From: Candidatus Latescibacterota bacterium
GTDB taxonomy: Bacteria; Latescibacterota; UBA2968; GCA-2709665
Assembly: GCA_965208835.1 (NCBI GenBank)
Contig: OZ242358.1
Location: 2,624,001 to 2,688,000, forward strand
DNA: 64,000 bases
Direction of reading: 5' to 3'
In this document: positions 21,109 to 39,659 of the stretch, one piece after another
Layout: every line of letters begins with the position of its first letter
How positions within the stretch are numbered: the stretch's first letter is position 1
The notes under the pieces: model-generated
Databases searched by the model: none
Seen by the model: the letters and a program-made list of their open reading frames with translations, nothing else
Told to the model about the DNA's origin: nothing
Position numbers and translations under genes: made by a program

Positions 21109-21152
21109 CATTTTTGGCGCCGGAGCGCCGCAGACGTGAATGTGAGGCAACC

Positions 21153-22490: not shown

Positions 22491-22657
22491 GCGTTCACCG
22501 GGCCTGTCCGGACACGATCATTTCGCGCAGCGCACCCGGGGTGTTGACCGGTCAGTCATTGAGGACGACATCCCGGTGAAGAGATCTTCGGTAAAACCCT
22601 GTTCCTGCATGTCACGGTCGTAAAGCGCATTTCCCGGGACGGCAGACGGAAAGTTCA

Positions 22658-23905: not shown

Positions 23906-24030
23906 CCGCACAGGCGGCAAGGGGCCGTTCCGCGCGTTTTCTTACGTACAGGTCAGGAACGATCTTCACCGCTGATCGGTCTAATTCATAAAGCACGTTT
24001 TTCCCTCTGTACCCTGATGAGGGGCCTGAA

Positions 24031-24921
24031 ATGCGCATCGTTGCGACCGGCTTGACGAAAATCTATCCGAAGGGGACCGTGCCCGCGCTGGACAGCGTGG
24101 ACCTGGAGATCGGAAAGGGAACATTCGGCCTGCTCGGGCCGAACGGCGCGGGAAAAACCACGCTCATCAAGATTCTTTCAACTCAAATGGCGCCGACATC
24201 CGGCCGTGTCAGCATCGGTACGTGGGATCTGCAGCGGAACCGCTCCGATGTGCGTCGCAGCCTGGGATATCTTCCGCAACACTTCGGGTCGTACCCGCAA
24301 CTGACGGCGTGGGAATTCATGGACTATATGGACCGGCTGGCGACGGGCCGGCGCAGGAACGGCAGAAAGGCGCGGGTGCGCGACGCACTTGAGAACGTGG
24401 GGCTCTACGAAGCGCGCGACCGCCGGACGGGTACGTTTTCCGGGGGGATGATGCGGCGTCTCGGGATCGCTCAAGCCATCGTCGGCGATCCGGAAATCCT
24501 GGTTGTTGACGAGCCCACGGTGGGACTCGATCCGGAAGAACGCATACGCTTCCGGGGGATCCTCGCGCGGTTGAGTCGGGACAGGGCAATCCTGATCTCC
24601 ACCCATATCGTGGGTGACATTTCGAGTACCTGTGATGACCTGGCGGTGCTGAATGCAGGACGGATCGTCTACAGGGGATCTCCGGAGGCACTGGTTACTC
24701 GCGCCGAAGGCAAGACCTGGCGCGTGCAGGCGGATGATGCCGAATTCGAAACGATATCCCAACGGTTTCTGGTTGTGACGGTCGCCGTGGACGGAGGCCG
24801 GATGGATCTCAGGTTCGTGGGCGATGGTCCGCCGCCGGCCCAGGCGGAACCGGTCTCGCCAAATCTCGAAGACGCGTACGTCTATTTTATGGGCATGGAG
24901 AATGCGGAAGGGGCTGCGTAG
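24031..24921 (+). CDS. ABC transporter ATP-binding protein (ABC-2 type)
   Basis: GPNGAGKT, YLPQ, FSGGM, VVDEP, STH, PNLEDAY. Confidence 0.95.
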   Translation: MRIVATGLTKIYPKGTVPALDSVDLEIGKGTFGLLGPNGAGKTTLIKILSTQMAPTSGRVSIGTWDLQRNRSDVRRSLGYLPQHFGSYPQLTAWEFMDYMDRLATGRRRNGRKARVRDALENVGLYEARDRRTGTFSGGMMRRLGIAQAIVGDPEILVVDEPTVGLDPEERIRFRGILARLSRDRAILISTHIVGDISSTCDDLAVLNAGRIVYRGSPEALVTRAEGKTWRVQADDAEFETISQRFLVVTVAVDGGRMDLRFVGDGPPPAQAEPVSPNLEDAYVYFMGMENAEGAA

Positions 24922-24924
24922 GCC

Positions 24925-27900
24925 ATGAATACCGTCTTCACCATTTTGTCCGTGGCCAGATACGAACGCAAAATGCTGATGCGTACGATCCGGTTTCGCA
25001 TCCTGGGTGGTATCGGCGTGCTCATCCCCGTTGTTCTGGGCATCGGCCTGGCGATCGCGGAGTCCAGAGGCGTTGAATTCGAGTCTGTCAGCGGAATCGG
25101 CGCCTACATGCCCTTTTTTGTCTACAGCCTCCTCCAGACCGTTGTGATCGCGTTTATCGTGGGTGACTTCCGGGCCGCGGATGAACGCGCCGGAATTTAC
25201 GAGGTGGTCGCCGCACGTCCGCTTTCTACCGCCGAACTGGTCATTGGGAAGTATCTGGGGGTTCTGGGTGCGCTGATTACGCTGAGCCTGATCGTGCTGG
25301 TACTCAGCCTCGGAGTGCAGGCGGCCAAGATCAGCATTACGGGAGCGCCGTTTGCCATTCGACCCTATCTGACGTACTTGCTCCTGCTGAACCTGCCGGG
25401 GCTGATCTACATGTCCGCGCTTACGTTTTTCCTCGGGGCGGTATTGCGCCGTCAGGCCGCGGTGACCGTGCTGACCATCGCTTACGTCCTGATTGTTCTC
25501 CTGTTCCTCGGGCGCCGATACGGCGGCGTCTACGACTTCGGCGCATTCTTCGCCCCCGTGTTCTACTCGGATATGCTCGGGCTTGGCGATATTCGGCGCG
25601 TCGTCGAAATCCGGTTTTTCTACACGATGCTTGCCCTATTCTTCTTTGGTCTGTCAATCGACCGGTATCCACGGCTGCCCCAGTCCCTGTCCTGGCGCAG
25701 GTTCGGTCGATGTCTGACCGCCGGCGGTTTCGCTGCCGCGCTGTGCCTGTACATTTACATGGAAAACCGGGACTCGTCAGATCTGGCATTCAGGACGGCG
25801 CAGCTGGAAGTTCAGGAGAGATATGCCGGACATCCAACGGTGGCCGTTTCGCATTACTCGCTCGACCTGGACCTCGCGACCGCGCGGACGCCGCTGCGGG
25901 GCAGGGCGGTTCTGAGCATTTCGAACCCTCATTCCGCGCCGCTGGATACCCTCGTTTTCAGCCTCAACCCGGGATTGAGACTGCGAACCGTGAGTGCAAA
26001 AAACGGTGAGGGCGCCGCCGTCGACTGGCAACGCGAATACGCCGTCGTACGGGTCGCCCGAACGCTCCAACCCGACAGCATGGCGACGTTGGCGTTCGAA
26101 TACGACGGTTCGATTGACCTCAGCGGATTCGATCTGAGGCGTCATCCGGATGCGAGGCGTCTGCAGAAACGGCGCGCGGGGCCGGGTAGAAAAGGTGATC
26201 TGACCGCCTGGATCGGGGGGAATTCCGTATTCCTGCCGCCCCGCAGCCGGTGGTACCCTTCGCCGGGTGTGGACTACGGACACGAGGATGGCAGACCCGT
26301 GTCCTTCGCCACCGCGGATCTGGAAATCTCTCTTCCGGCGGGACTGGAGGTTGTAACCCAGGGGATGCCGGTCAGCCGGAAGGCGGAGGGCGGACGGGAG
26401 GTCCATTCGTGGAAGGCACGACGCCCCGTGCCTTTTCTCTCGCTCAACGCTGGCGTCTACCGAGTATTCCAGGCCGAGATTCATAACATCCAATGCGCCG
26501 TTTACGTTCATCCGACCCATGCCAGGCAGGTCACCTTCTTCGAAGACGCAAGGGATGACGCCCTCGAAACGCTGGGCGAAATCCTGGACAGCGTTGAACA
26601 GGAAACCGGGCTGGCCTATCCCTACGAACGCCTGTCGGTTGTGGAGGTGCCATTCCAGGTACAATGGTATTACGACGGATGGGAGGAAGCCGGAGGACTC
26701 GTGCAGCCGGGAGTGCTGATGCTGGAAGAGGACGTGCTGATGCGGCTCAATCTGCAGCGGCGTCTGAAGTGGATGCAGCGGCGACAACGGCGAAACGACG
26801 ATCCCGCCAGGATCAAACGGGATCTGCTGGTCAGCGCCGTCCTGCGCACATTCTTCGGCCGGGAGTCGACACAGGGCGGCATCTACCGAAGTCCGGTTGC
26901 GCAGCTCTGGTCGTTCAACAAGGGCTTCGAAGGCGAACACTACTCCCTGCTCAAGCGCGGAATGCCCGTCTATATTCAGCAACATCTCGAGACCAGCCTG
27001 CAACAAGGCTTCTATTCGCGGAGGGGCAGGTTCCGCGGTCGGTTCCGGCGCAACAGGGGCGCGCAAGGCGTCTCATGGGATACGGTAACGTCAAAGATGC
27101 GCCAGCGTTCTTTCGCGGAGCTGGATCCGAGTGCCGACGCGGAACTCTACCGTGCAGTCGTCGACGCCAAGGGCGCCTCCATGTTCGGGATGATGCAGGC
27201 CGTGGTGGGTGACGAGACGTTCAGAGACCTGGTCAGCGGATTCGAAGCGGCGAACCGCCACGCGGCGGTCGACTTCGGGTCCTTCGAGCGGGCGGCTGTC
27301 GGGGATTCCTCGCGCCAGGTGGAACGACCCGACCTGCATCGCCTCGTCAGCGACTGGCTGCACGGCACCCAGGTTCCCGGATACACACTGACACGGGCAA
27401 AGGCATACAAAGTGGACGATGGGTGGGGCATGATGGTGTATCAGGTCATCGTAAGGATTCGAAACGGCGAGCCGGGGCGCGGATTCGTCCAGATTCGAGC
27501 GATGGGGAGCGAAGACGAGGCGGTCAAGGGCGTCGAAATAGAAGGCGGGCAGGAGGTTGAGGTGGGGTTGATCCTCTGGGAACGGCCATCGAGAGTCAGC
27601 GTCGAGCCGTTTTTTGCACGCAACCGTCGCGTGTTGATGGTGCCGTTGCGCATACCCGAACAACCGATGGACGGATCCGCTACGACCTACGTGAGGGAGG
27701 TGGCACCGGATGAGACCGGATTGACCGAGATCATCGTGGACAACGACGACGATGGCTTCGAAATGCCGGTCCGCAGGGTGCGGCGCTATCTCCGACCACA
27801 GTTGAAGGGTGACAACTGGCAGGAGCGTCAGTTGCCGTTTTCCTTCGGCCGGTATGAAAACAACTTCCGGTGGAAGAAACCCGGCGACGGCGCGCAACCG

Positions 27901-28323
27901 GCCGTCTGGACCGCCCGATTGCCGCACAGCGGCGATTACGACGTCTACTACTATTTCATTCATCCAAGGTTCTCCAGGCGCCTGCGTATGGCCACGGAAT
28001 TCAGCCTTGTCGTCTCCCACGGAGGCGAGGTGGATACACTGGCGGTTGAAGCAGGCAAACTCAAGGGCGGCTGGAACGTACTGGGACGATACCGGTTCGA
28101 AGGCGGGGAGTTTGCCAGCGTCGAATTGTCCGACCGGGCAAACGGGCGCCTATATGCGGATGCGGTGCGCTGGAGGTACGTGGACCCCGACCACCCGGAA
28201 GAGGTGTATGAAGAAGATCTACCCGCATGGGATTTCGGCCGGGGACGTCGGGCCAGCGACCGGAGCGGACGAGGCGGCGGCAGCCGGAGTGGCGGAGGAC
28301 AATGGCGTGGAAGAGGTTGGTAA
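24925..28323 (+). CDS. ABC-2 permease fused to a degenerate M1 aminopeptidase-like ectodomain and a golvesin/xanthan-lyase-type C-terminal domain
   Basis: About 7 N-terminal TM helices with RPLS.AE..IGK; HYSLDLDL, WYP, YPYERLSVVEVP, AKG..MF.M, DWL; IIVDNDD...GDYDVY...GWNVLGRY...ADAVRW; no HExxH. Confidence 0.75.
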   Translation: MNTVFTILSVARYERKMLMRTIRFRILGGIGVLIPVVLGIGLAIAESRGVEFESVSGIGAYMPFFVYSLLQTVVIAFIVGDFRAADERAGIYEVVAARPLSTAELVIGKYLGVLGALITLSLIVLVLSLGVQAAKISITGAPFAIRPYLTYLLLLNLPGLIYMSALTFFLGAVLRRQAAVTVLTIAYVLIVLLFLGRRYGGVYDFGAFFAPVFYSDMLGLGDIRRVVEIRFFYTMLALFFFGLSIDRYPRLPQSLSWRRFGRCLTAGGFAAALCLYIYMENRDSSDLAFRTAQLEVQERYAGHPTVAVSHYSLDLDLATARTPLRGRAVLSISNPHSAPLDTLVFSLNPGLRLRTVSAKNGEGAAVDWQREYAVVRVARTLQPDSMATLAFEYDGSIDLSGFDLRRHPDARRLQKRRAGPGRKGDLTAWIGGNSVFLPPRSRWYPSPGVDYGHEDGRPVSFATADLEISLPAGLEVVTQGMPVSRKAEGGREVHSWKARRPVPFLSLNAGVYRVFQAEIHNIQCAVYVHPTHARQVTFFEDARDDALETLGEILDSVEQETGLAYPYERLSVVEVPFQVQWYYDGWEEAGGLVQPGVLMLEEDVLMRLNLQRRLKWMQRRQRRNDDPARIKRDLLVSAVLRTFFGRESTQGGIYRSPVAQLWSFNKGFEGEHYSLLKRGMPVYIQQHLETSLQQGFYSRRGRFRGRFRRNRGAQGVSWDTVTSKMRQRSFAELDPSADAELYRAVVDAKGASMFGMMQAVVGDETFRDLVSGFEAANRHAAVDFGSFERAAVGDSSRQVERPDLHRLVSDWLHGTQVPGYTLTRAKAYKVDDGWGMMVYQVIVRIRNGEPGRGFVQIRAMGSEDEAVKGVEIEGGQEVEVGLILWERPSRVSVEPFFARNRRVLMVPLRIPEQPMDGSATTYVREVAPDETGLTEIIVDNDDDGFEMPVRRVRRYLRPQLKGDNWQERQLPFSFGRYENNFRWKKPGDGAQPAVWTARLPHSGDYDVYYYFIHPRFSRRLRMATEFSLVVSHGGEVDTLAVEAGKLKGGWNVLGRYRFEGGEFASVELSDRANGRLYADAVRWRYVDPDHPEEVYEEDLPAWDFGRGRRASDRSGRGGGSRSGGGQWRGRGW

Positions 28324-28367
28324 TCCACTGGAGATCAGCGTATTATAACCCTTTTTTGAGGTGAAAC

Positions 28368-29453
28368 TTGAAGAGAAAAGTCCTGGGCGGTTTTTATATG
28401 GTATTCACCGCATCTGCCATTCTGGCCGGATGCGGCGGGCAAACAGAACAGCGGTCCGTGGATCTGACCGTCCCCGTGACGGTTCAGGCAGTGCGTCTGG
28501 ACACCATGGAGGCGACAGTGGCGGCCACGGGCACGCTCCGGCCCTTCAAAGAAGCCCGTATTCAGACCGAGGTGGAGGGAATTATTCAATTCGTGGCGCG
28601 GGGCGTCGGCGGACGACTGACGGAAGGGATGCGGGTGACCCGGAACCAGGAGATCGCCCGTCTTGCAAACAGGGAGCTCGTTGTCAACGCGCGCCTGGAA
28701 TCCCGTGAACTTGCGCGCTCCGCGGCGACGCGCACGCTGCGCGAGCAGGAGGTACTCGTAGAACGCAAACTGGGCACGGAGAGAGACCTGGAAGAAGCGC
28801 GCCGGGCCCTCGCCGAGGCCGAATCCAACTATGAAGATGCTCTCGTTCAGATCGCCAAGACGACGATTCGGACGCCAATCGCCGGTTTTCTGACAGGATT
28901 GGCCGATATTACCGAAGGCACGCTGGTGGAAGCCCGCACCACCGTTGCAACGGTGATGGATTACAATCAGGTGTTCGTCGATCTCAAGATTCCAAATGCA
29001 TATATCGCATCCGTTTCACCGGGCCAGGTCTTGCGGGTAGAGAACTACGCGTTGCCCAACCGGCGGTTTCTGGGGACCGTCAAGGTCGTGGACCCCGCCA
29101 TCGATCCGACGACGCGTACGTTCCGGGTGCTGGGGGTGGTAAAGAACCCGAACCTGATGCTGCGCCCCGGGATGTTCGTAAAGGCCGAGATTGTCACCCG
29201 GTCTCACGAAGACGCGGTCGTGGTCCCGCGCCGCTTCGTCCTGACCCGCCAGAATCGTAAGGTGGTGTTCGTCGAAGAGGAGGGAAGGGCACAGATGCGC
29301 AATGTGAAACTGGGATTGGAGGGGCCGGAGCAGGTCGAGATTCTCGAAGGGCTTGAACCGGGTGAGCGCCTCATTACCAGCAATTACGAGACGCTGCGGC
29401 CGCGTACGCGCGTGCGGGTGACCGGGGACGGCGTGTCGGGGCAGCAACGATAA
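28368..29453 (+). CDS. RND periplasmic adaptor (membrane fusion) lipoprotein
   Basis: Lipobox LAGC; ATGTL.P, TTIRTPIAG, IDPTTRTF, LRPGMFV. Confidence 0.92.
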   Translation: MKRKVLGGFYMVFTASAILAGCGGQTEQRSVDLTVPVTVQAVRLDTMEATVAATGTLRPFKEARIQTEVEGIIQFVARGVGGRLTEGMRVTRNQEIARLANRELVVNARLESRELARSAATRTLREQEVLVERKLGTERDLEEARRALAEAESNYEDALVQIAKTTIRTPIAGFLTGLADITEGTLVEARTTVATVMDYNQVFVDLKIPNAYIASVSPGQVLRVENYALPNRRFLGTVKVVDPAIDPTTRTFRVLGVVKNPNLMLRPGMFVKAEIVTRSHEDAVVVPRRFVLTRQNRKVVFVEEEGRAQMRNVKLGLEGPEQVEILEGLEPGERLITSNYETLRPRTRVRVTGDGVSGQQR

Positions 29454-29541
29454 CCGTGAGCGCCGTACATCCATCGTCCTGACTGCCGTACCGGCTCGAG
29501 AGGTCCCGTCTGCAACGAACGAAACATCGTGTGAAATTTTT

Positions 29542-29725
29542 GTGTCCTGTCCCGAAATTTCCTCACCATTCGACCGCCGATTCATCCCGTCTCGCTGCGT
29601 TCCCGTCGCTCGCCGACCATACGCAGGTTGCCTGCGCTCCGGCGCTGGTTCCTGAGCCTGTCGAAGGATGCGAGCCGGGCGACTCAGCGGTCGAATTCAT
29701 CCAACTTATTTCCGGGACAGAACAC
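29542..29725 (+). mobile_element. MITE copy 2 (184 bp, with ~21-bp internal insertion)
   Basis: GTGTCCTGTCCCG...CGGGACAGAACAC; aligns to copies 1 and 3 except for extra TGGTTCCTGAGCCTGTCGAAGGA. Confidence 0.85.
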
Positions 29726-29734
29726 CAGATTGGA

Positions 29735-29782
29735 CCCCTCTGGGGCCCGGCGACAGCGTGTGGGCCTTCCGGAGGGTTTTTT
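29735..29782 (+). terminator. Terminator-like hairpin between adaptor and RND genes
   Basis: CCCTCTGGGGCCC...GGGCCTTCCGGAGGG followed by T7. Confidence 0.5.
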
Positions 29783-29954
29783 TAACCCGCTGTGTCGATG
29801 CACGCATACCGGAGACATGGACCCGCGACCCACGATGTCTTCAGGCATCGTCACACTCGATCCCGGGGACCTTTTCCTGCCATCGTCTCCATCCATGTAA
29901 ATCTACGGTTTCTGAGTTAAAGAAACCTGTTCTTGCGCAAAAAGGGCCGATACG

Positions 29955-32900: not shown

Positions 32901-33038
32901 GGCGAAGGCGCCCGCCTGCGGGCGCCGATGGCAGTGGCGGTTATCGGCGGATTGGTGACGTCCACATTAATGACCCTGGTGGTGATTCCAGTCGTCTACG
33001 AAATGATCGAACGGCTCAGAAACAGGAGGACGGCGTGA
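29955..33038 (+). CDS. RND efflux permease (AcrB-like)
   Basis: 1027 aa; VDLLPD, GMLVDNAIVVIEN, FES.LHP, AVNDAIIL, RLRPILMT, PMAVAVIGGL. Confidence 0.95.
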   Translation: MSLPEFSTKYPVTVAMATLTVALLGWISLERLDVDLLPDLRSPVITVDLRFPGKTPREMEERYAQHLEGDIGTVRHVKRVHSVSRSGQAVVIAEFEWDADMDFAVLDVQKKVARYASDPDITSLDVTQEDPQALPVMRLAVSGADWQDPDELLGRVENIIRPKLEGMSGVASVEIEGGAEKEIRVTLDSYLLQAFGVNSETVVSRIREANSDVSGGTLKDGQRSYLVKGLGRLTDLADVNNLVVGERRGESTNGGDDASTHRVPVMVSDVGTVALQYRERETIVRLDGIECVGLSVYKEADSNTSSVVNGVLQELGSLEADLAGIRFTVVENQARFVERAVDEVEEAAVIGALLAVGVLLAALRQWTATLVIGLAIPISVLATFTLMYFQGLSLNVMTLGGLALGAGMLVDNAIVVIENIYRHLESGETAVEASVKGAGEVGVAILASTLTTVSVFLPIVYLQGLAGELFKEQAWTVAFSLISSLAVAMTVVPMLTARLFSRYRRRSTRAAGAGTFRRFLDASLNHKGRTMAVLAACLLAAFYMASSIHTSFIPTEDEGVLHVDLAMPEGTRLESTDRVARRVAAIAQAVAGEEARHIYLRAGTDPNRFTAVGEPTGPNRAELTVVLGPQTDRRGVTELTAALDAALLEVPNVKVNYRLHKSALEGLVRGGAAPVQVEVSGENLVLLRELTADLKRRMDVLSTVYNVRTSFQDGQPEVDVVLRPEVTAAFGLTSQNLVRELERRLGGEEAGELSKDQRARTIRVGFEDVDLRELEHARIDGPDGARLTLGDLADLRVVQGPREILRDGQRRVGRVSAFLTEGVVLSQAATQIRQAVSQMAIPHGYRITITGEERERAESFGGLQFALLLSVVLVYMVMASLFESLLHPFTVMLTVPLAGIGVVFAFWGLGEAFGVMAFIGAIMLGGIAVNDAIILVDHINQLRRKAGDVRMAVLQGAQDRLRPILMTSATTILALLPMAVGVGEGARLRAPMAVAVIGGLVTSTLMTLVVIPVVYEMIERLRNRRTA

Positions 33039-36000
33039 TTCTCCCCGATCTTGCGGTCCGGCGGCCGGTCACCACGTCCATGTTCTTTGCCGCGTTCGCC
33101 ATATTGGGGGTGGTGTCGTGGACGAGGCTCCCCATACAGCTTTTTCCGGAGCTGATCTTTCCGGAGGTATATGTCACGCTGACGCTGCAGGGGGCCTCTC
33201 CGGAACAGGTAGAGAGAGATCTGCTGATTCCCGTCGAAGGCGAGATCGGCAAACTCGACGGCGTCCAGGAGATGGAATCGTTCGCGATGGCAAACAGGGG
33301 GGGTGTCCGGGTATCCTACGCCCCCGACGTGGATATGAAATTCGCCCTGCTTCAGCTGCAGAGCAACCTGAACCGATTGCAGGCATCGCTGCCCGAACGC
33401 ACGCAGACCGATGTACGGAGGTTCGATTCGACCGATCTCAGCAGCAGCATTATGGAGCTTCACGTGCTTGCCGACTGGGACCTGAACCAGTTGCGGGAGT
33501 TCGCGGAGGAAAAGATCCGACCCGAACTGGAGTCTGTCGACGGCGTCGTGAACGTATCCGTATTGGGCGGGCGCCGCAGCGCGGTTGAAATCGTCCTGGA
33601 TCCGTTCCTGCTGGAAGCGCACGGCCTTTCGACGGGCCAGGTACGGACACGCCTTAACAGCCACAACCGGAGACGTGAGTACCTGGGTCGGGTATACGAC
33701 GGGAACCGGGCCTATTCGGTTAGCATTCAGGGACAGTTTACGGACCTGCACCAGATTCGCAATCTCGTCTTGAACGAGGACGGCACGCTCAGGTTGGGCG
33801 ACGTCTCGCGGATCAGGCACGGACTTCAGGAGCAGGCCGATCGGCACAGAGTCAACGGCAAACCTTCTGTGGGCGTGCGCGTCCAGAAGGACGACGAAGC
33901 GAATCTGATCGAAGTGGCCGCTGACGTGGAAACCGCCGTTGGCCGGCTGAATCGGAATCTCGAGAGTGAGGGTGTGGAACTGGGCGTGAGTTCCTCCCAG
34001 GCCGATCTGATGACGGGGGCGCTCTCCACCCTGAAACAGGCGGCCATCGTCGGTGCCGTGCTCGGGCTCATCGTACTCTTTCTGTTTCTTCGCAACCTGC
34101 GTTTTGTCTCGGTCCTCCTGCTGGCCATCCCGGTCTCCCTCCTGATGACCTTTAATCTGATGTACCTGGGCGGGCTGTCCGTCAACGTGCTGTCGCTTTG
34201 CGGTCTCGCGCTCGCGATGGGAATGCTCGCGGACAACGGCATCGTGGTGATGGAGAATATCTTCAAACACTACGAACGAGGAAAGTCGCCCGCGCGCGCG
34301 GCACGGGACGGGGCGTCCGAAGTCGGGCGCGCGGTGATCGCGGCGACAGCAACCACGGTAACCGCATTCCTGCCGGTTCTGTTCATCGAAAGCGACGCAC
34401 GAGACCTGCTGCGTGAACTCGCGTTGTCCATGGCGTTTCCGCTTGTGGCTTCGCTGCTGGTGGCGCTTACGCTTGTCCCCGCCCTTGCCGTCCGCGCATT
34501 GAGCAGCGAGGTCCGGCAGCCGCCGGACGTCCGTGGCCTGCTCGAACGGTATACCATGCTGTTGAAGGCCGCATTGCGGCACCGTGCATCTGTGGTCCTG
34601 GCGGTCGGCGCCGCCCTTGCGCTGACACTCGTCCTGGCCTTCTTCTACCTGCTTCAACAACAGGTACGGAGGGAGGAGACGCGCTTTACGGTTTACGTGA
34701 ATCTGCCGGAAGGCGCCACGCTGGATGCCACGGATGAGGTTGTGAAACAGGTGGAGGAATCCGTACGGGACGTGCCCGGTCTGGATCGCTTTACGGCGTC
34801 GGTCCGTGAGGCCGAGGCCGACGTAAACGTCCTGCTGCATAACCGTTCCGGGCGGCCCGGTGGTATCTCGCTGGATGAAATCAAGGAACAGCTGGACGAG
34901 AAACTGCAGAATGTACAGGGAGGTGTCGTTGGATACGAACCCAGGCCCAGGGCGGGGAGGGGGGGCCGTGGGCAGGGGATAGGTCAACGCCGGCGGCGCA
35001 GTTCCGGAGGGTTCGATCTGACCGGAACCACGCCTGCAGAGCAGGTCGTGGTACGCGGATACGACTTTACGATACTGACAATGATCGCGAACGACGTGTC
35101 ATACCGGCTTGAGGAACTCGAGGAGGTGGATGCCAACAGTGTACGTGCCGACGCCGAACGGAGTTCGCCCGAGGTCCAGGTGATTCCCGACGCGTCGGCC
35201 CTGTTCGACAGGCGGCTCGACACGCGGGAGGTCCTCGCTGCAATGGGTGACACCCGATGGGACGGGTTCAGAACGACCGTTCCGTTTCTGCTGCCCGATG
35301 CCACCGAGATACCCATCGAAGTGCGAACGATCGAAGAGGAGGACCGCGACCGGTACGGGCTGTCTGAATTCCGGCGTTCGCGCATTCTGAACCAGGACGG
35401 CCACTACGTACCTCTTAACGAAGTCGCCCGGGTCCGGACGGACGAGGGCAGAAGCAGCCTGTTGCGGACCGACCAGACTCGCCGGCTCGTGGTTTCGTAC
35501 AGGTTTCCATCGGAAGTTCTGGATTCTCAACCACGATTGGATCTTGCGAGGCGGGCGGTGCGCGCGACGCTGCAGGATATGCTGCTTCCCGAGGGTTATT
35601 CGATCGAAGTCATCGAGGCACACGAGGAGATGATTTACTATTGGATGATGGCAATAGCCGCGGTACTCATCTATATGATTCTGGCCTCGCTGTTTGAATC
35701 TCTCTCCTCTCCGATAATCATCCTGTGTACGCTTCCGCCCGCGGCCATCGGCTCCTGCTGGGCGCTGATGATGTCAGGTACGGGCCTGAGCCAGCAGGAG
35801 GGTCCCATGGCGCTACTGGGCTTCATCGTCCTGCTTGGTATTGCGGTGAATAACGGGATTATCCTGATCGACGCCGTCGGTGTGCTCAGATCCCGATTCG
35901 GCTATCGTCGGGAACGCGCCGTACTGGCGGCCGCGAGATCCCGTGTAAGACCCATCCTGATGACAACGGCCACCACGCTGCTGGGCGTTCTTCCGCTGGC

Positions 36001-37747
36001 GCTGGAATTCGGCGGCGATTTTGAGATCTGGCCACCCTTCGCAATCACGGTACTGGGCGGATTGTCGGTCTCCATGGTGTCCACGCTGATCCTGATTCCA
36101 GTCGTATATATGGGACTGGATCAAATCGGAGATTGGCTTGCAGATATGGGGTTAATCGGCGTCGCGCTCTCGCTGCTGGCCACGGCCGCGGCCGGCTACG
36201 GCATATTTGTCCGATATGAAAGCACCTTCTGGGCAAGCCTGTCGATAATACCACTCTGGATTGTCTTTTTGACCGTGGCGTGGATCATCCAGAAGGTACA
36301 TCGCTCGCGAGTCGCCGCCCGCCGCGTGTCGAGCGCCGTACACGCCATTCAGTTGAGAAACCTTACCAAGATTTACGGTGCACCCGGACGATTCGTGCGG
36401 GAGTGGGCGCGTGATGAGCGCCGGCGCGGGCGGCTGATGAAAACAGGTCTGGATCCGCAGGACCGCAAGGCGATCCGCGACGCACTCTTTTGGAAGCTGC
36501 CTTTGCTTGCGCTGTTGTCGTTATTCACCGCCTATTTCGAAGACGAAATCTGGGTCTATCTGCATGGGTTGGCGTTGGCCTTTATGGTGGCCCACGTGGG
36601 TCGATGTTTCGCAGACCTCCGCCAGTGGCATCTGCAGGCGCCGTTCGCTGCCATTGTCAGACTGCTGAACAAAGTCGTTCTTCCACTGACGCTTATCGCC
36701 TATGTGCACTGGCGGCTGGACCTGCTTTCGGTCACGCTTGCCACATTCGGACTGTGGGCCGCCTATCGTCTGGCACGCCGGCTTGCAAACCGGGTACGGA
36801 CGGGCGAGATCGATCCTGATGCCCTGTCGGGACGTCTTCTGCGACCGCGCCGGTGGTTCTATCAGATGGCGTCGGCGCTGCCTATTATTGGCGTTCCCCG
36901 GCGGGAATTTCGGGCGCTGGCTGGCGTCAACCTGGAAATCGGCAGGGGGATGTTCGGTCTTCTGGGTCCGAATGGCGCCGGCAAGACCACGTTGATGCGT
37001 ATTCTCTGCCGTGTACTCGAACCCAGCTACGGGTCCATTCTGATCGACGGCCGAAATATCCCGAATAAGGGTTCGATCCATGGACTGATCGGGTACCTGC
37101 CACAGCACTTCGGCAACTACGGACACCTTTCCGCATACGAGTTTCTGGAGTATAGAGCGCTGCTCGAGGGCTTCAAGGACAGAAAGATTCGCGAGACCCG
37201 GGTGATCGAATCTCTGGAGCAGGTCAATCTGAGCGAACGAAGAGACGATCCGATCGGCTCTTTTTCGGGCGGAATGAAGCAGCGCCTCGGCATCGCGCAG
37301 ACGCTCCTGCACGCCCCGCTGATCGTCGTCGTGGACGAGCCCACGGCGGGACTCGATCCGTTGGAGCGTATCCGGTTTCGCAACCTGCTCGCCAGGCTGA
37401 GTCAGGATCGCATCGTCATTTTTTCCACGCATATCGTGGAAGACATCTCGGGAAGCTGCAATCGGCTGGCGGTACTGGACCAGGGGCGTCTACTGTATAC
37501 GGGAACGCCGGGGGAGATGAGAAATCTGGCGGCGGGCCGGGTGTGGGACGCGGTGGTTCCGGACGGACGCTTTTCCGACATGGAGGAACAACTGAAGCTC
37601 ATATCGCACCAGCGAACCCCCGACGGCGTCCGGATGCGATTCCTGTCGGAACGGGCACCGGCCGGAATCGGCGCACAGATCGTGGACCCAACCCTGGAAG
37701 ACGCATATCTCTACCTGCTTGGCGGAGGGGAGGGACAGCCGTGCTGA
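33035..37747 (+). CDS. RND permease fused to extra TM helices and a C-terminal ABC ATPase domain
   Basis: aa 1 to ~1025 RND (GMLADNGIVVMEN, AVNNGIIL, RVRPILMT), then TM segments, then GPNGAGKT, YLPQ, FSGGM, VVDEP, STH, PTLEDAY; GTGA overlap with the upstream RND gene. Confidence 0.92.
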   Translation: MILPDLAVRRPVTTSMFFAAFAILGVVSWTRLPIQLFPELIFPEVYVTLTLQGASPEQVERDLLIPVEGEIGKLDGVQEMESFAMANRGGVRVSYAPDVDMKFALLQLQSNLNRLQASLPERTQTDVRRFDSTDLSSSIMELHVLADWDLNQLREFAEEKIRPELESVDGVVNVSVLGGRRSAVEIVLDPFLLEAHGLSTGQVRTRLNSHNRRREYLGRVYDGNRAYSVSIQGQFTDLHQIRNLVLNEDGTLRLGDVSRIRHGLQEQADRHRVNGKPSVGVRVQKDDEANLIEVAADVETAVGRLNRNLESEGVELGVSSSQADLMTGALSTLKQAAIVGAVLGLIVLFLFLRNLRFVSVLLLAIPVSLLMTFNLMYLGGLSVNVLSLCGLALAMGMLADNGIVVMENIFKHYERGKSPARAARDGASEVGRAVIAATATTVTAFLPVLFIESDARDLLRELALSMAFPLVASLLVALTLVPALAVRALSSEVRQPPDVRGLLERYTMLLKAALRHRASVVLAVGAALALTLVLAFFYLLQQQVRREETRFTVYVNLPEGATLDATDEVVKQVEESVRDVPGLDRFTASVREAEADVNVLLHNRSGRPGGISLDEIKEQLDEKLQNVQGGVVGYEPRPRAGRGGRGQGIGQRRRRSSGGFDLTGTTPAEQVVVRGYDFTILTMIANDVSYRLEELEEVDANSVRADAERSSPEVQVIPDASALFDRRLDTREVLAAMGDTRWDGFRTTVPFLLPDATEIPIEVRTIEEEDRDRYGLSEFRRSRILNQDGHYVPLNEVARVRTDEGRSSLLRTDQTRRLVVSYRFPSEVLDSQPRLDLARRAVRATLQDMLLPEGYSIEVIEAHEEMIYYWMMAIAAVLIYMILASLFESLSSPIIILCTLPPAAIGSCWALMMSGTGLSQQEGPMALLGFIVLLGIAVNNGIILIDAVGVLRSRFGYRRERAVLAAARSRVRPILMTTATTLLGVLPLALEFGGDFEIWPPFAITVLGGLSVSMVSTLILIPVVYMGLDQIGDWLADMGLIGVALSLLATAAAGYGIFVRYESTFWASLSIIPLWIVFLTVAWIIQKVHRSRVAARRVSSAVHAIQLRNLTKIYGAPGRFVREWARDERRRGRLMKTGLDPQDRKAIRDALFWKLPLLALLSLFTAYFEDEIWVYLHGLALAFMVAHVGRCFADLRQWHLQAPFAAIVRLLNKVVLPLTLIAYVHWRLDLLSVTLATFGLWAAYRLARRLANRVRTGEIDPDALSGRLLRPRRWFYQMASALPIIGVPRREFRALAGVNLEIGRGMFGLLGPNGAGKTTLMRILCRVLEPSYGSILIDGRNIPNKGSIHGLIGYLPQHFGNYGHLSAYEFLEYRALLEGFKDRKIRETRVIESLEQVNLSERRDDPIGSFSGGMKQRLGIAQTLLHAPLIVVVDEPTAGLDPLERIRFRNLLARLSQDRIVIFSTHIVEDISGSCNRLAVLDQGRLLYTGTPGEMRNLAAGRVWDAVVPDGRFSDMEEQLKLISHQRTPDGVRMRFLSERAPAGIGAQIVDPTLEDAYLYLLGGGEGQPC

Positions 37748-38463
37748 ACTGGCGGGAACTGCTGTTGACCACGTGGCGGCTTTATCGGCTGAGCTGCAGG
37801 ATCATCTTTCACAGGAAACTGATGTTCATGTCCATTGGCATCCTTGTCTATTACGCCGCCATGTACGCATTCGCGGTGTGGCGTCCCGACGAAGGATTCG
37901 GCGTATCGAGGGCGCTCCATGTTCTGGTTGAAATTCCCGGCATCGCACTGGCCATCTATCTGACGATGGATCTCGTCGCTGGCGAACGTGACAGGAATAC
38001 ACTGGAGACGTTGTTCAGCACAACCTCGTCGCACTACAGGATCTGGACGATTCGAATGTTGGGGGTCTATCTGGTGCTTGCGGGAACACTAACGGGAATG
38101 ACGATTGTCGCCTACTTCTTCTTCGCGGAACTGCCGATCCTATGGGGCGGGTTGAACGCCTTTCTGCCGGCGTGCTTTGCAGCGGGGCTCACTTTTTACT
38201 TTTCCGTTCTCTGTCGAAGCGGAAACGCGGCCGCAATGCTCGCAACGGGCGTGATGGGCCTGACGCTTGTTGCCTCACAATCAATGCCCGACTCGCCCTT
38301 CGTGCTTTTTCTGGATACGTTCGATCCCCCGGTGGGAATGGAAGACACGTTGTGGGGCGACCGCGTACTGCTGAATCGCATGGCGGTCGCGCTGCTGTCG
38401 GGCCTGCTGCTTCTTATTGGTCTTCGCAAGATGGAAGCCAGGGAAAGATTGGTATCTTCGTAG
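37741..38463 (+). CDS. ABC-2 type permease
   Basis: About 6 TM helices, GERDRNTLETLFST motif; GTG overlaps the upstream stop. Confidence 0.8.
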   Translation: MLNWRELLLTTWRLYRLSCRIIFHRKLMFMSIGILVYYAAMYAFAVWRPDEGFGVSRALHVLVEIPGIALAIYLTMDLVAGERDRNTLETLFSTTSSHYRIWTIRMLGVYLVLAGTLTGMTIVAYFFFAELPILWGGLNAFLPACFAAGLTFYFSVLCRSGNAAAMLATGVMGLTLVASQSMPDSPFVLFLDTFDPPVGMEDTLWGDRVLLNRMAVALLSGLLLLIGLRKMEARERLVSS

Positions 38464-38516
38464 GTTTGCGCTGCCCCGCATCTGATGAACCCGGGCCGAA
38501 TCCTCTCCAGCACATT

Positions 38517-39659
38517 CTATTCCCTGCTTACATCCAATCGGACCTTCCGGGGAACGACGTTTACGACCGCCAGGTCCGTCCCGTGCCTTACCGACTCGGT
38601 GCCGAATTCAAAGGTTCTGCGTCCAAACCTCACGTAACCGGCGTCGATAACGAGTTGGAAGTCGTCCACGGGCGCCAATAGGATTGCACGACGCGGACCC
38701 TTCATGGTAACGTCTACGACGGCAGGTGTAACGCCCTTCAGCTTATAGCCACGTGGCAGATTCTCCACGCCGACCTTCACTTCGTATGTCGTTTCCCGGA
38801 CCGCCGCGCCGGGTACCAGAAACATCCACGCGCAGAACGCCAGCACGAGGGAAACCAACCCCTCCGCAAGACGCCGCACCAGCCGGCCCCGTCCGTTTTT
38901 CCGCCCGCCGGCGACCACGTGCTGCGCATGTTCCTGCAACCTGGCCAGAAGTTCAACCGGGTCGCCTACGACTTCCAGCACTCCCTGTTGCGCCACGGAG
39001 ATGGTGCCGCGCTCTTCGGAGACAACGAGGCACAGGGCATCGCTGCGTTCGGCCAGCCCGAGCGCAGCGGCGTGGCGGGTGCCTCCCGCGCCGAGTTCGG
39101 TGCGGTTTTCCGAAAGCGGCAGATGTACGGCGAAACGCTCCAGTTGGTCATCTTTCATCACCAGAGCCCCGTCGTGGCCCGCCGACGACGTACCGAACAG
39201 GCTGTCGATCAGCTCTTCACTGATATTGGCCTGTAGCGCGATCCCGCCCTGCAGAAGCCTGTCCAGCGGCTCTCGCCCGGGCAGGACCACGAGGGCGCCC
39301 CGCCGCTTCACCGCCAGCTGATGAATCGCACGAACCAGCACCGCCAGGCTGCCTCCTCGGGGCCGGGATACCCGTCTGCCGAGGCCCAGCGCGGCAATCT
39401 GTTCGAACAGCCGCCGGAGGTCGTCCTGAAATACAACGACAAGCAGCACAACCAGCACTGCGAAAAAACCCTGGAATATCCACGCCGTCAGCTGCAGTTC
39501 GAATTGCCGGGCCAGCAGATAGAAGACGCCCAGAAACGCCAGCCCCACAAGCGCCATTCGCGCGTGCATTCTCCGTGTCCAGGCAAGCAGACCCCAGATC
39601 AATACACCCACGACCGCTACGTCCACCAGATCGGCAAATGCGATGTCCATTAACGCCAT
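38517..39659 (-). CDS. cdaA: Diadenylate cyclase CdaA with C-terminal TM and YbbR (CdaR-like) domain
   Basis: 3 N-terminal TMs, VVFQDDLRR, GALVV, HDGA, GTRHAAALGL, VVSEERG; C-terminal P..V.VT.KG...VP.KV. Confidence 0.88.
   Translation of the reverse strand: MALMDIAFADLVDVAVVGVLIWGLLAWTRRMHARMALVGLAFLGVFYLLARQFELQLTAWIFQGFFAVLVVLLVVVFQDDLRRLFEQIAALGLGRRVSRPRGGSLAVLVRAIHQLAVKRRGALVVLPGREPLDRLLQGGIALQANISEELIDSLFGTSSAGHDGALVMKDDQLERFAVHLPLSENRTELGAGGTRHAAALGLAERSDALCLVVSEERGTISVAQQGVLEVVGDPVELLARLQEHAQHVVAGGRKNGRGRLVRRLAEGLVSLVLAFCAWMFLVPGAAVRETTYEVKVGVENLPRGYKLKGVTPAVVDVTMKGPRRAILLAPVDDFQLVIDAGYVRFGRRTFEFGTESVRHGTDLAVVNVVPRKVRLDVSRE

What the first reader, a model, noticed from the sequence alone, without database searches (positions are those of the whole stretch)
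24031..38463. Hybrid RND-ABC transporter operon: a complete heterodimeric ABC covalently tethered to an RND pair
Seen: six co-oriented genes encode a free ABC ATPase, a permease-peptidase-like fusion, an adaptor lipoprotein, an RND, an RND-ABC ATPase fusion (1570 aa) and an ABC-2 permease, with overlapping or near-touching junctions at 24921/24925, 33035-33038 and 37741-37747. Both ATPases keep Walker A, Q-loop, signature, Walker B and H-loop and are clear paralogues. Known: RND pumps are proton-driven trimers, ABC-2 exporters need two NBDs and two TMDs, and the two superfamilies normally work separately. Inference: the parts add up to one heterodimeric ABC (2 NBD + 2 TMD) held against a heteromeric RND, possibly handing substrate from an ATP-driven to a PMF-driven exporter or gating the RND with ATP. 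No TolC-like gene is in the locus. I know of no characterised example, though similar loci may exist unannotated in FCB genomes.
Basis: partly seen in the sequence, partly recalled or inferred. Interest (0 to 1): 0.88.

Follow-up and report, generated by a model that had tools for sequence, protein, structure and literature searches.

The report
Conserved RND pump fused to ABC ATPase
A conserved gene cluster joins a proton-driven RND efflux pump and an ATP-driven ABC transporter, with one RND subunit covalently fused to an ABC ATPase, and this combination, found in several bacterial phyla, appears never to have been studied.

Summary
Window 24031-38463 holds six co-oriented genes:
- a free ABC ATPase;
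- an ABC-2 permease fused to an M1-aminopeptidase-like domain;
- an RND adaptor lipoprotein;
- an RND;
- a 1570-aa RND-ABC ATPase fusion;
- a small ABC-2 permease.

The fusion is not an artefact:
- 110 of the 120 best database relatives are 1486-1646 aa, and all 120 carry both domains.
- 82 of 168 genomes sampled from the window's phylum have it.
- It also occurs in three other phylum samples: 4/151, 13/201 and 25/151.
- An independent metagenome contig crosses both junctions without gaps.

All six genes are present in 28 of 32 fetched loci. Three lack the free ATPase and one region is cut.

New findings:
- The fused ATPase domain is split. Two extra TM helices follow the RND, and a conserved four-TM insertion separates strand beta1 from Walker A.
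- The peptidase-like domain has the M1 fold but no zinc motif in 0/21 orthologues.
- Many relatives carry a TolC-like gene inside the operon.

My favoured mechanism is an ATP-to-proton-motive-force export relay; it is inferred, not shown. A heterodimeric ABC remains unproven. Literature searches found no description.

The parts
24031..24921 (+). Free ABC ATPase (A1, 296 aa), DrrA/GldA-like, with a C-terminal accessory domain. Walker A 24136-24162, Q-loop 24271-24288, signature 24436-24459, Walker B 24496-24519, H-loop 24595-24612.
   Evidence: ORF. Pfam ABC_tran 1.3e-30. NCBIfam best hit drrA, 2.2e-58, below its cut-off. Motifs invariant in 18 orthologues. Coordinates.
24925..28323 (+). ABC-2 permease fused to a large extracytoplasmic module (B, 1132 aa):
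- N-terminal interface helix, 6 TM helices and a 7th long helix (aa 1-300).
- M1-aminopeptidase-fold domains (aa ~305-815) without a zinc site.
- Beta-sandwiches, including a Golvesin_C / xanthan-lyase-C-terminal-like module (aa 964-1086).
- Arg/Gly-rich loop (27016-27069) and tail (28237-28320).
   Evidence: Pfam. PDB sequence hit to xanthan lyase 6f2p, aa 986-1082, E 2e-6. AF2 model pLDDT 74.4. Foldseek best hits IRAP/ERAP1/ERAP2, E 3e-20, about 650 columns. HExxH 0/21 and GxMEN 0/21.
28368..29453 (+). RND periplasmic adaptor (MFP) lipoprotein. Lipobox ILAGC at 28419-28433; the likely true start is the ATG at 28398.
   Evidence: NCBIfam RND_mfp 2e-56, 191 bits, above its 94.9 cut-off. HlyD_D23 7.5e-25. 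Lipobox read from the translation.
29454..29954 (.). 501-nt non-coding spacer between the adaptor and RND1 genes, with a short hairpin followed by a T-run near 29760-29785. In more distant relatives the two genes abut or overlap.
   Evidence: Sequence. No Rfam family. Gene spacing in other loci.
29955..33038 (+). RND1 (1027 aa), unfused HAE-type RND permease. TM4 reads VDNA and TM10 reads VNDA.
   Evidence: ACR_tran 3.4e-223, full length. TM4/TM10/TM11 motifs conserved in 21/21 orthologues.
33035..36124 (+). RND2 portion (aa 1-1030) of the fusion protein. TM4 ADNG (34205-34264), TM10 VNNG (35816-35881). Gly/Arg-rich periplasmic insertion at 34940-35011.
   Evidence: ACR_tran 2.3e-184, aa 5-1027. 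Best solved relative MdtB 9lyq_B, E 8.8e-86. Motifs 21/21. Gly-rich insertion (Arg-rich in the window's clade) present in 21/21 RND2 and 0/21 RND1. Coordinates.
36125..36322 (+). Two extra transmembrane helices (aa 1031-1096) that follow RND TM12 and bring the chain back to the cytoplasm.
   Evidence: AF2 helices 2-31 and 34-66 of the fragment. Invariant W4, W36 and R60. Positive-inside pattern read from the sequence.
36341..36379 (+). Strand beta1 of the NBD with the A-loop Tyr (motif ..LTKIYG).
   Evidence: AF2 strand 74-84. K82 and Y84 invariant in 22 sequences. Aligns with the N-terminus of the free ATPase (read).
36389..36877 (+). Insertion inside the NBD: an amphipathic helix, four transmembrane helices and a return helix (fragment aa 89-251).
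   Evidence: AF2 helices 89-107, 111-137, 141-165, 172-198, 201-225 and 239-251. Invariant W94, R99, W123, P126, W143, P187, G236, Y246. A profile of this linker finds only this family among 1.84 billion representatives: 141 hits, and in 22/22 of those of 1500 aa or more it lies after an RND.
36908..37747 (+). Remainder of the fused NBD (beta2, Walker A 36965-36991, signature 37262-37285, Walker B 37322-37345, H-loop 37421-37438) plus a C-terminal accessory domain.
   Evidence: ABC_tran 1.9e-26. Invariant motifs. Foldseek best hits TM_1403 (4yer), NosF, ABCA1/4/7 and LptB.
37741..38463 (+). Small ABC-2 permease (F, 240 aa). Its start overlaps the fusion gene's stop by 7 nt.
   Evidence: Sub-threshold ABC2_membrane hits. 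Profile-profile match to the TMD of B: probability 81%, E 1.2e-5. Conserved directly after the fusion gene in all 32 loci examined.

Best explanation
The locus encodes one self-contained, envelope-spanning export module built from two transporter classes.

Shown:
- A heteromeric RND pair (RND1 and RND2) with its adaptor lipoprotein is always encoded together with an ABC-2 (type V-like) set of two ATPase domains and two permeases. In many relatives an in-operon TolC-like channel is also present.
- One ATPase domain is covalently attached to the C-terminus of RND2 through two extra TM helices, and it carries a conserved four-TM insertion between strand beta1 and Walker A. This NBD is therefore pinned to the membrane next to the RND.
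- One permease carries a roughly 850-aa extracytoplasmic module with an M1-aminopeptidase fold that has lost its zinc site, plus a carbohydrate-binding-like beta-sandwich.

Inferred (most likely mechanism): a two-stage relay.
1. The ATP-driven ABC-2 part moves an amphipathic, lipid-linked or glycan-bearing product from the cytoplasm or inner leaflet to the periplasmic face.
2. The dead-peptidase/CBM-like module holds it there.
3. The proton-driven RND/adaptor/outer-membrane channel, held alongside by the covalent tether, expels it across the outer membrane.

In this genome the outer-membrane channel must be encoded elsewhere. The substrate is unknown.
For: Fusion real and old:
- All 120 best relatives carry PF00873 and PF00005, and 110/120 are 1486-1646 aa, at 37-89% identity.
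- 82/168 genomes of the phylum sample have the linker plus NBD, nearly all in open frames of about 1540 aa or more; a few are cut at contig ends.
- 4/151, 13/201 and 25/151 in three other phylum samples.
- Contig X6 record 26 (2412 nt) spans 35695-38106 with 58 substitutions and no gap, and no indels are listed in 4 runs.

Module conserved:
- 17/20 loci have all six genes in the same order.
- In the other 3/20 the free ATPase orthologue (84% identical to its same-genus orthologue) sits alone elsewhere in the genome, with no permease within 6 kb. It is retained although unlinked.
- 3/3 loci of the Gemmatimonadales-centred sample and 8/9 further loci have all components.
- Flanking genes are not conserved beyond genus or family.

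Envelope-spanning: an OEP gene lies inside the operon in 9/20, 3/3 and 5/5 loci.

Both energy modules look functional:
- All ATPase motifs are invariant in both NBDs.
- The TM4 Asp and TM11 Arg are invariant in both RNDs, 21/21 each.

Tether geometry: AF2 model with pLDDT 78.9, and the charge distribution obeys the positive-inside rule (read).

NBD class: ABC-2/DrrA/NosF/ABCA-like.

Precedent for an RND and a type V ABC being needed for one export pathway: MmpL7 plus DrrABC for PDIM (PMC11539658, abstract seen).
Against: - There is no functional, expression or interaction data of any kind.
- No substrate clue comes from neighbouring genes.
- A covalent tether shows proximity, not substrate hand-over.
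- The relatives of permease B form large families (ABC-2 plus Peptidase_M1 clusters of over 1000 members) whose genomic context I did not examine. The ATPase1/permease-B pair may therefore be an autonomous transporter that merely travels with the RND genes. In 4/4 Acidobacteriota-sample loci it is a separate, divergent transcription unit.
- The periplasmic location of the M1-like module rests on a predicted 7th helix, not on experiment.
- The ABC-2 assignment of both permeases is below Pfam thresholds.
Confidence: 0.5

Rival explanations
1. Mechanotransmission or gating. The ABC-2 part carries nothing across the inner membrane. ATP hydrolysis drives movements of the large periplasmic pseudo-peptidase module, as in MacB, LolCDE, FtsEX or NosDFY. 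These movements load, clear, assemble or gate the RND/adaptor/channel complex.
For: - Large extracytoplasmic domain on an ABC permease.
- NosF of the NosDFY machine is among the closest solved NBDs.
- The catalytically dead M1 fold suggests a binding or mechanical role.
- The NBD is rigidly pinned to the membrane by six extra TM helices.
The mechanisms of MacB, LolCDE and FtsEX are recalled from memory, not taken from a call.
Against: - The permeases look like 6-TM ABC-2 domains, not the 4-TM MacB/FtsX type.
- The second permease F has no periplasmic domain.
- Nothing distinguishes this rival from the relay model computationally.
Confidence: 0.22
2. Co-localisation only. Two or three independent pumps (an A1/B homodimer, an NBD2/F homodimer and an RND1/RND2 trimer) are co-encoded. 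One pair is fused for co-expression, stoichiometry or membrane targeting, with no mechanistic coupling between ATP and proton-driven cycles.
For: - The A1-B pair is a separate divergent unit in 4/4 loci of one phylum sample.
- A1 is unlinked in 3/20 loci.
- Both NBDs are canonical, as expected for homodimers.
- B-like proteins form large families of their own.
Against: - The fusion and its peculiar six-TM linker are conserved with invariant Trp and Pro residues across four phylum-level samples. This is hard to explain without a structural role.
- A1 and the fused NBD are each other's closest paralogues by a wide margin.
- The full gene set stays together in 28 of 32 loci.
Confidence: 0.17
3. 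ATP-powered RND. The fused NBD replaces or supplements the proton relay of RND2, so that this RND protomer is driven by ATP.
For: - RND2 lacks the TM10 Asp that RND1 has (VNNG against VNDA/S, 21/21 each).
- Neither has the AcrB-type TM10 Lys. AcrB residue numbering is recalled from memory.
Against: - The DN (TM4) / NN (TM10) pattern of RND2 is the commonest pattern among the unfused RND paralogues of the same genome: 5 of the 10 other paralogues. It is therefore not a loss tied to the fusion.
- The TM4 Asp and TM11 Arg are invariant.
- A dedicated ABC-2 permease directly follows the NBD in all 32 loci, giving it a conventional partner.
Confidence: 0.06
4. Artefact. The 1570-aa ORF results from an assembly error or a lost stop or frameshift between an RND gene and an ABC gene.
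For: None found.
Against:: the same architecture and length occur in well over a hundred independent genomes and contigs, many on single-contig assemblies. The linker is under purifying selection.
Confidence: 0.01

Closest known systems
MdtABC-type heteromeric RND tripartite pumps (two tandem RND paralogues plus one adaptor)
   Same: Two paralogous RND genes in tandem with overlapping stop and start, preceded by one adaptor gene. MdtB is the best solved-structure match of RND2 (9lyq_B, E 8.8e-86). An OMF is encoded in the operon in many relatives and elsewhere in this genome.
   Different: No Mdt-type pump carries an NBD or extra TM helices. RND1 and RND2 are only 33% identical to each other, and orthology to MdtB/MdtC was not tested. 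TM4 reads DN instead of DD, and TM10 has no Lys. The MdtB2C stoichiometry is recalled from memory, not from a call.
MacAB-TolC and other ABC-driven tripartite pumps
   Same: ATPase, adaptor and TolC-like channel in one envelope-spanning exporter. A permease with a large periplasmic domain.
   Different: MacB is a 4-TM type VII ABC with its own fused NBD and no RND. Here the permeases are 6-TM ABC-2-like, and the adaptor is of the RND_mfp class, followed by RND genes. A 2021 review of tripartite systems gave no RND-ABC fusion in the passages found; only the first 300,000 characters are held (PMC8277102).
DrrABC (type V ABC) working with the RND MmpL7 in PDIM export of mycobacteria
   Same: A DrrA-like ATPase with a C-terminal extra domain, two different ABC-2 permeases, and an RND transporter are all required for one lipid export route (PMC11539658, abstract). 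DrrA is the best NCBIfam match of both NBDs here.
   Different: In mycobacteria the proteins are separate. There is one ATPase type, the RND is of the MmpL class, and there is no adaptor or TolC. No physical coupling is known from the abstract I read. Here one NBD is covalently fused to a HAE-type RND.
'ABC transporter permease / M1 family aminopeptidase' proteins (automatic annotation; uncharacterised)
   Same: Same architecture as permease B: an ABC-2 TMD followed by an M1-fold module (ESM Atlas clusters; fold match).
   Different: B and its 20 orthologues lack HExxH and GxMEN (0/21) and add a Golvesin_C module. Whether the wider family keeps the zinc site, or sits near RND genes, was not examined.
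NosDFY and ABCA-type NBDs
   Same: These are the closest solved NBD folds, including the C-terminal regulatory domain.
   Different: None of them has transmembrane helices inserted between beta1 and beta2 of the NBD, or is fused to an RND.

Membership tests
RND superfamily, HAE-type permease (Pfam ACR_tran) | Full-length match to the 12-TM, two-periplasmic-loop RND profile | tested here: met
   P0004 aa 5-1018 (3.4e-223) and P0005 aa 5-1027 (2.3e-184) cover profile positions 3-1020 of 1021. Both score below the NCBIfam RND_permease_2 subfamily cut-off: 628 and 528 bits against 1250.
RND superfamily, HAE-type permease (Pfam ACR_tran) | Proton-relay residues: TM4 Asp(-Asp), TM10 Lys, TM11 Arg (AcrB pattern; numbering recalled) | tested here: inconclusive
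   The TM4 Asp and TM11 Arg are invariant in both RNDs (21/21 each). The second TM4 Asp is Asn and the TM10 Lys is Asn. RND1 has an Asp next to it and RND2 has not. The same DN/NN pattern occurs in 5 of the 10 other RND paralogues of this genome.
RND tripartite efflux system | Adjacent periplasmic adaptor (MFP) gene and an outer-membrane factor | tested here: met
   RND_mfp 191 bits, above its 94.9 cut-off. An OEP gene lies inside the operon in 9/20, 3/3 and 5/5 relatives' loci. There is none in this 64-kb window, and one homologue lies elsewhere in the genome.
ABC ATPase (Pfam ABC_tran) | Walker A, Q-loop, signature, Walker B with catalytic Glu, H-loop | tested here: met
   All are invariant in 22 fused NBDs and in 18 free ATPases. 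Positions are given.
ABC ATPase (Pfam ABC_tran) | One contiguous soluble NBD fold | tested here: not met
   In the fused chain, beta1 (with the A-loop Tyr) is separated from beta2 and Walker A by about 175 residues that contain four predicted TM helices. This is conserved in all 22 aligned sequences.
ABC-2 / type V exporter permeases | Six-TM ABC-2 membrane domain recognised by family profiles | tested here: inconclusive
   Pfam ABC2_membrane_3 scores 29.6 bits (cut-off 31.6) for B and 17.4 bits for F. The AF2 model of B shows an interface helix plus 6 TM helices plus a 7th helix. B and F match each other with HHalign probability 81%. The fold of F was not modelled.
M1 zinc aminopeptidases | M1 fold (N-terminal beta domain plus thermolysin-like domain) | tested here: met
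   Foldseek best hits are IRAP, ERAP1 and ERAP2, E 3e-20 to 1e-17, about 620-690 aligned columns, 11-13% identity, on a model with pLDDT 74.4.
M1 zinc aminopeptidases | HExxH(18)E zinc site and GxMEN exopeptidase motif | tested here: not met
   HExxH in 0 of 21 and GxMEN in 0 of 21 orthologues. The Pfam Peptidase_M1 hit is below its cut-off: 18.5 against 27.7 bits. It is not a peptidase by these criteria.
MacB-type (type VII) ABC tripartite pumps | Four-TM FtsX-like permease with a periplasmic domain between TM1 and TM2 | tested here: not met
   No FtsX or MacB_PCD Pfam hit. In B the periplasmic module follows the 7th helix at the C-terminus.
   There is no degenerate site in either NBD. Gene order and the divergent arrangement fit both hetero- and homodimers.

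The most novel reading that the evidence does not exclude
The six proteins form one supercomplex:
- an RND1(2):RND2(1) heterotrimer whose single RND2 carries, on its six-TM tether, one NBD;
- that NBD dimerises with the free ATPase;
- this assembles a heterodimeric ABC-2 transporter (small permease plus pseudo-peptidase permease) directly against the RND.

This would be the first transporter that spends both ATP and proton-motive force on one substrate. It would carry the substrate from the cytoplasm or inner leaflet through the periplasm and a TolC-like duct in a single machine. It would also be the first NBD with membrane helices inserted in its fold.
Probability: 0.3. Interest if true: 0.92.

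Novelty: new variant of a known kind. Interest (0 to 1): 0.8.

Why it matters
RND pumps and ABC exporters are the two main engines of export across the Gram-negative envelope, and they are treated as separate machines with separate energy sources. A covalent, anciently conserved fusion of the two gives a natural system for testing several open points:
- whether inner-membrane transporters hand substrates directly to RND pumps;
- how a dimeric ATPase can be matched to a trimeric RND;
- whether ATP and proton cycles can be coupled.

The fusion is present in at least four phylum-level groups and in about half of the sampled genomes of the window's own phylum. The membrane-inserted NBD and the zinc-less M1 module are new structural themes for ABC transporters. 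The carriers are poorly studied environmental lineages whose named relatives are Gemmatimonadota, Acidobacteriota, Latescibacterota, KSB1 and Krumholzibacteria. The exported product may therefore be an unrecognised envelope or extracellular component of these bacteria.

Tried and rejected
- Assembly or frameshift artefact: rejected.
- 'Proton-dead' fused RND: considered because RND2 lacks the TM10 Asp of RND1. Rejected as specific evidence because 5 of the 10 other RND paralogues of the same genome share the pattern.
- Active M1 peptidase: rejected (0/21 zinc motifs).
- Extra six TM helices as a cryptic ABC TMD: Pfam finds nothing there. Foldseek matches of the linker-plus-NBD model are NBD-driven, and the long ABCA alignments have rmsd of about 19 Å. 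No support.
- Complex prediction of the permease-B TMD (aa 1-295) with permease F: verdict 'no answer', score 0.12 under the 0.32 mark. This is no evidence either way.
- Sequencing runs: no RNA holder is listed, so nothing can be said on expression or operon structure. Only DNA contigs were laid.
- Promoter/terminator and Rfam scans of 23500-39000: nothing above chance and no family.
- The search for related loci with the linker alignment A2 failed because it has no conserved stretch. I used five of those named records only as entry points to other phyla. None of the five genomes themselves has the linker (0/5).
- Standalone 'linker plus NBD' form: of the short hits I read four. Three begin inside the family's sequence: two in the RND C-terminal region and one in the linker. 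One (P0152, 526 aa) starts with Met within the first extra helix. This is ambiguous, so a split form is neither shown nor excluded. No 'shorter' search with the search for homologous proteins was run.
- Substrate clues from flanking genes: none conserved.
- Literature: searches, and term look-ups in PMC8277102 (first 300,000 characters only), found no RND-ABC fusion. Subscription journals, TCDB and InterPro notes could not be searched. Supplementary files were not consulted.

Full report
**1. Observation**

The ORF list and translations reproduce the six co-oriented genes at the stated coordinates.

Pfam and NCBIfam give:
- a DrrA/GldA-like ABC ATPase (P0001);
- a 1132-aa protein with weak ABC-2 membrane hits at its N-terminus, a weak Peptidase_M1 hit and a significant Golvesin_C hit (P0002);
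- an RND_mfp adaptor above its curated cut-off, with an ILAGC lipobox (P0003);
- a full-length ACR_tran protein (P0004);
- a 1570-aa chain with full-length ACR_tran (aa 5-1027) and ABC_tran (aa 1297-1438) (P0005);
- a small protein with weak ABC-2 hits (P0006).

The junctions are as described, with Shine-Dalgarno-like GGAGG(A/G) before the two overlapping GTG starts. The small permease starts at 37741. Four orthologues have Met at that alignment column.

**2. The fusion is real and conserved**

- A word-indexed search with residues 1031-1570, restricted to proteins of 863-2748 aa, listed 120 best hits. All carry PF00873 plus PF00005. 110 are 1486-1646 aa and the other 10 are shorter, evidently partial. 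Identity is 37-89%. Some lie on contigs of 4.7-8.1 Mb.
- Names given by sources include Gemmatimonadota, Acidobacteriota, Latescibacterota, candidate division KSB1 and Krumholzibacteria.
- In the window's own genome (one 5.18-Mb contig) the linker, the M1-like permease and the small permease are single-copy.
- In 168 genomes sampled from the window's phylum, 88 matched at E <= 1e-60. In 82 of these the match covers the linker (E <= 6.5e-106), nearly all in open frames of about 1540 aa or more; a few are cut at contig ends. The other 6 matched only at the level of the free ATPase.
- A profile of the linker alone (alignment A2) against 1.84 billion representatives found only 141 proteins at E <= 1e-3. 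All 22 of those of 1500 aa or more have the linker directly after an RND (from residue 1020-1062, or the corresponding offset). Most of the rest look like gene fragments, to judge from where the profile match begins.
- Using named MAG records only as entry points, the same profile found the fusion in three other phylum samples. It occurred in 4/151 genomes around a Gemmatimonadales record, 13/201 around an Acidobacteriota record and 25/151 around a Krumholzibacteriia record. Nearly all were again in open frames of about 1550 aa or more.
- Contigs from four public runs of other studies were laid on 35000-38500. One (X6 record 26, 2412 nt) runs from 35695 to 38106 with 58 substitutions and no gap, and no insertions or deletions were listed in any run.

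An assembly or frameshift artefact is excluded.

**3. Neighbourhood**

| Sample | Loci | Result |
|---|---|---|
| Window's phylum | 20 regions of 20 kb | 17 hold all six genes in the same order and strand; 3 (one genus) lack the free ATPase |
| Gemmatimonadales-centred | 3 | 3/3 hold the full set plus an OEP |
| Acidobacteriota | 4 | 4/4 hold all six, split into two divergent units, ATPase1-permeaseB and adaptor-RND1-RND2/NBD-permeaseF |
| Krumholzibacteriia | 5 | 4 are colinear with an OEP; the fifth has a 3.8-kb insert, an RND1 split into two ORFs, and is cut before the ATPase |

- In the three genomes that lack the adjacent free ATPase, a true orthologue (84% identical to the same-genus orthologue) lies elsewhere. 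No B-like or F-like permease lies within 6 kb of it.
- A TolC-like gene (PF02321, E 1e-40 to 1e-48 for the three tested in Pfam) sits between the M1-like permease and the adaptor in 9 of the 20 own-phylum loci. Two further loci have a weak OEP-like ORF just after the small permease.
- Flanking genes are not conserved beyond the genus or family. The block is therefore a self-contained six- or seven-gene module.
- The window has no OEP-like ORF. One homologue lies about 570 kb away in the genome.

**4. Anatomy of the fused chain**

The alignment of 22 linker-plus-NBD segments and an AF2 model (pLDDT 78.9) show the following order after RND TM12:
1. Two helices of about 30 residues each.
2. A short basic stretch.
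3. Strand beta1 of the NBD, with invariant Lys and the A-loop Tyr.
4. An amphipathic helix.
5. Four hydrophobic helices.
6. A return helix.
7. Only then beta2 and Walker A.

Comparison with the free ATPase shows the insertion lies exactly between beta1 and beta2: the free ATPase has about 10 residues there and the fused NBD about 175. The charge distribution follows the positive-inside rule, which is my reading of the sequence.

Invariant Trp, Pro, Arg and Gly positions are spread over the six helices, and no invariant charged residue lies within them. This suggests a packing or tethering role.

The NBD core is closest to TM_1403, NosF, ABCA1/4/7 and LptB. It keeps every catalytic motif, as does the free ATPase. 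The two NBDs are 46% identical, far closer to each other than to any other ATPase in the genome.

**5. The RND pair**

- MdtB is the best solved relative of RND2.
- Across 21 orthologue pairs, RND1 always has TM4 VDNA and TM10 VND(A/S). RND2 always has TM4 xDN(G/S) and TM10 VNNG. Both keep the TM11 Arg.
- The AcrB-type TM10 Lys is absent from both.
- Five of the ten other RND paralogues in this genome also show DN/NN. RND2 is therefore not specially deprived of a relay, and I see no evidence that ATP replaces protons.
- RND2, but never RND1, carries a 20-35-residue Gly-rich insertion (Arg-rich in the window's clade) in its periplasmic part (21/21 against 0/21).

**6. The M1-like permease**

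- AF2 (pLDDT 74.4) predicts an N-terminal interface helix, six TM helices and a seventh long helix (255-300). That helix would carry the rest of the protein out of the cytoplasm.
- These are followed by a beta domain, a helical domain and beta-sandwiches.
- Foldseek's best matches are IRAP, ERAP1 and ERAP2 (E down to 3e-20, about 650 columns, 11-13% identity).
- No orthologue has HExxH or GxMEN (0/21 each).
- The C-terminal sandwich matches the C-terminal module of a Paenibacillus xanthan lyase (E 2e-6; Pfam Golvesin_C).
- ESM Atlas neighbours are clusters labelled Golvesin_C/ABC-2 and 'ABC transporter permease / M1 family aminopeptidase'.
- Arg/Gly-rich loops and tails occur in the window's clade.
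- The small permease aligns to the TMD of this protein by profile comparison (probability 81%).

**7. Mechanism**

Shown:
- covalent linkage of one NBD to RND2;
- membrane pinning of that NBD;
- conserved co-occurrence of two NBDs, two ABC-2-like permeases, two RNDs and an adaptor, often with an OMF;
- intact ATPase motifs and intact core RND residues.

Inferred as most likely (about 0.5): a relay. The ABC-2 part brings a cytoplasmic or inner-leaflet product to the periplasmic face. The zinc-less M1/CBM-like module binds it. The adjacent RND/adaptor/OMF expels it.

The nearest functional precedent is PDIM export, which needs both the RND MmpL7 and the type V ABC DrrABC (PMC11539658, abstract read).

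Rivals:
- a MacB/NosDFY-like mechanotransducer acting on the RND complex (0.22);
- mere co-localisation of independent pumps (0.17);
- an ATP-driven RND protomer (0.06);
- an artefact (0.01).

Canonical sites in both NBDs, the gene pairing and the divergent arrangement in one phylum fit both.

**8. Comparison and novelty**

Every domain belongs to a known family. The membership table shows where features are met, and where they are not: the split NBD, the dead M1 site, and the absence of MacB-type features.

What is not known from the literature I could search (and passages of PMC8277102) is the following:
- any RND fused to an ABC NBD;
- an NBD with inserted TM helices;
- this seven-gene module.

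Automatic annotations already show both domains (for example JGI's 'AcrB/ABC-type ... ATPase subunit'), so the architecture is visible in databases but uncharacterised. I rate it a new variant of known kinds. There is a substantial chance (about 0.3) that it is a new type of dual-energised machine.

**9. Limits**

- The VIA fold libraries were absent.
- There are no RNA data.
- The complex prediction gave no verdict.
- Residue numbering and mechanisms of AcrB, MdtBC, MacB, LolCDE, FtsEX and MmpL3 are recalled, not taken from calls.

Noticed in passing
window 29454-29954: A 501-nt non-coding spacer lies between the adaptor and RND1 genes, with a short hairpin followed by a run of T near 29760-29785. 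In the same-genus locus L035 the gap is about 320 nt. In more distant loci the two genes abut or overlap. The module may be split into two transcripts in this genus.
   Followed up: partly
window 34940-35011 (P0005 aa 636-659); also 27016-27069 and 28237-28320 in P0002: Gly-rich low-complexity segments, also Arg-rich in the window's clade, sit in the predicted periplasmic parts. The RND2 insertion is present in 21/21 orthologues and absent from 21/21 RND1. The RG-rich tail of permease B occurs in the window's clade only. They might bind an anionic polymer; this is unexplained.
   Followed up: partly
L052-L054 and L135-L137 (genomes G084, G081, G091): In three species of one genus the free ATPase gene has left the module. 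It sits alone elsewhere in the genome, 84% identical to its same-genus orthologue, with no ABC-2 permease within 6 kb.
   Followed up: yes
L151-L154: In four loci of the Acidobacteriota sample the module is arranged as two divergent units (ATPase1-permeaseB, and adaptor-RND1-RND2/NBD-permeaseF) sharing one intergenic region, with no OEP gene.
   Followed up: partly
L158: This locus has about 3.8 kb inserted between permease B and the OEP gene, and its RND1 is split into two ORFs at about residue 327. This may be a decaying copy or a sequencing error.
   Followed up: no
L041:1400-2908 and L042:1391-2899 (- strand): A weakly OEP-like ORF (E 1e-13 to 1e-14 against the in-operon OEP profile) lies directly downstream of the small permease gene in two genomes that lack the internal OEP.
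   Followed up: no
window 38517-39659 (- strand): A CdaA-type diadenylate cyclase gene (DAC plus CdaA_N domains) converges on the end of the module. It is followed by a TPR protein and a 1180-aa FG-GAP/PQQ-repeat protein on the + strand. The diadenylate cyclase neighbour is kept only in the same-genus locus; the TPR and FG-GAP genes each recur near one more distant locus.
   Followed up: partly
window 19507-23905: Upstream genes encode a TPP-dependent enzyme, a FAD oxidoreductase (DAO) and a 415-aa protein with an L-PSP/RidA domain. They are not linked to the module in other families.
   Followed up: partly
window 35000-38500 in runs X5, X6, X11, X13: Contigs 90-99% identical to this stretch occur in runs of several studies, labelled sponge metagenome, marine metagenome and metagenome. 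Depth peaks at 36872-36988 reflect the generic Walker A region shared with other ABC genes.
   Followed up: partly
G000:C1:3231190-3232725 (- strand), outside the window: This is the only homologue in the genome of the relatives' in-operon OEP (30% identity, E 2e-52). It lies next to an unrelated ABC ATPase hit at 3230501-3231121. It is a candidate outer-membrane partner for the module in this organism.
   Followed up: no
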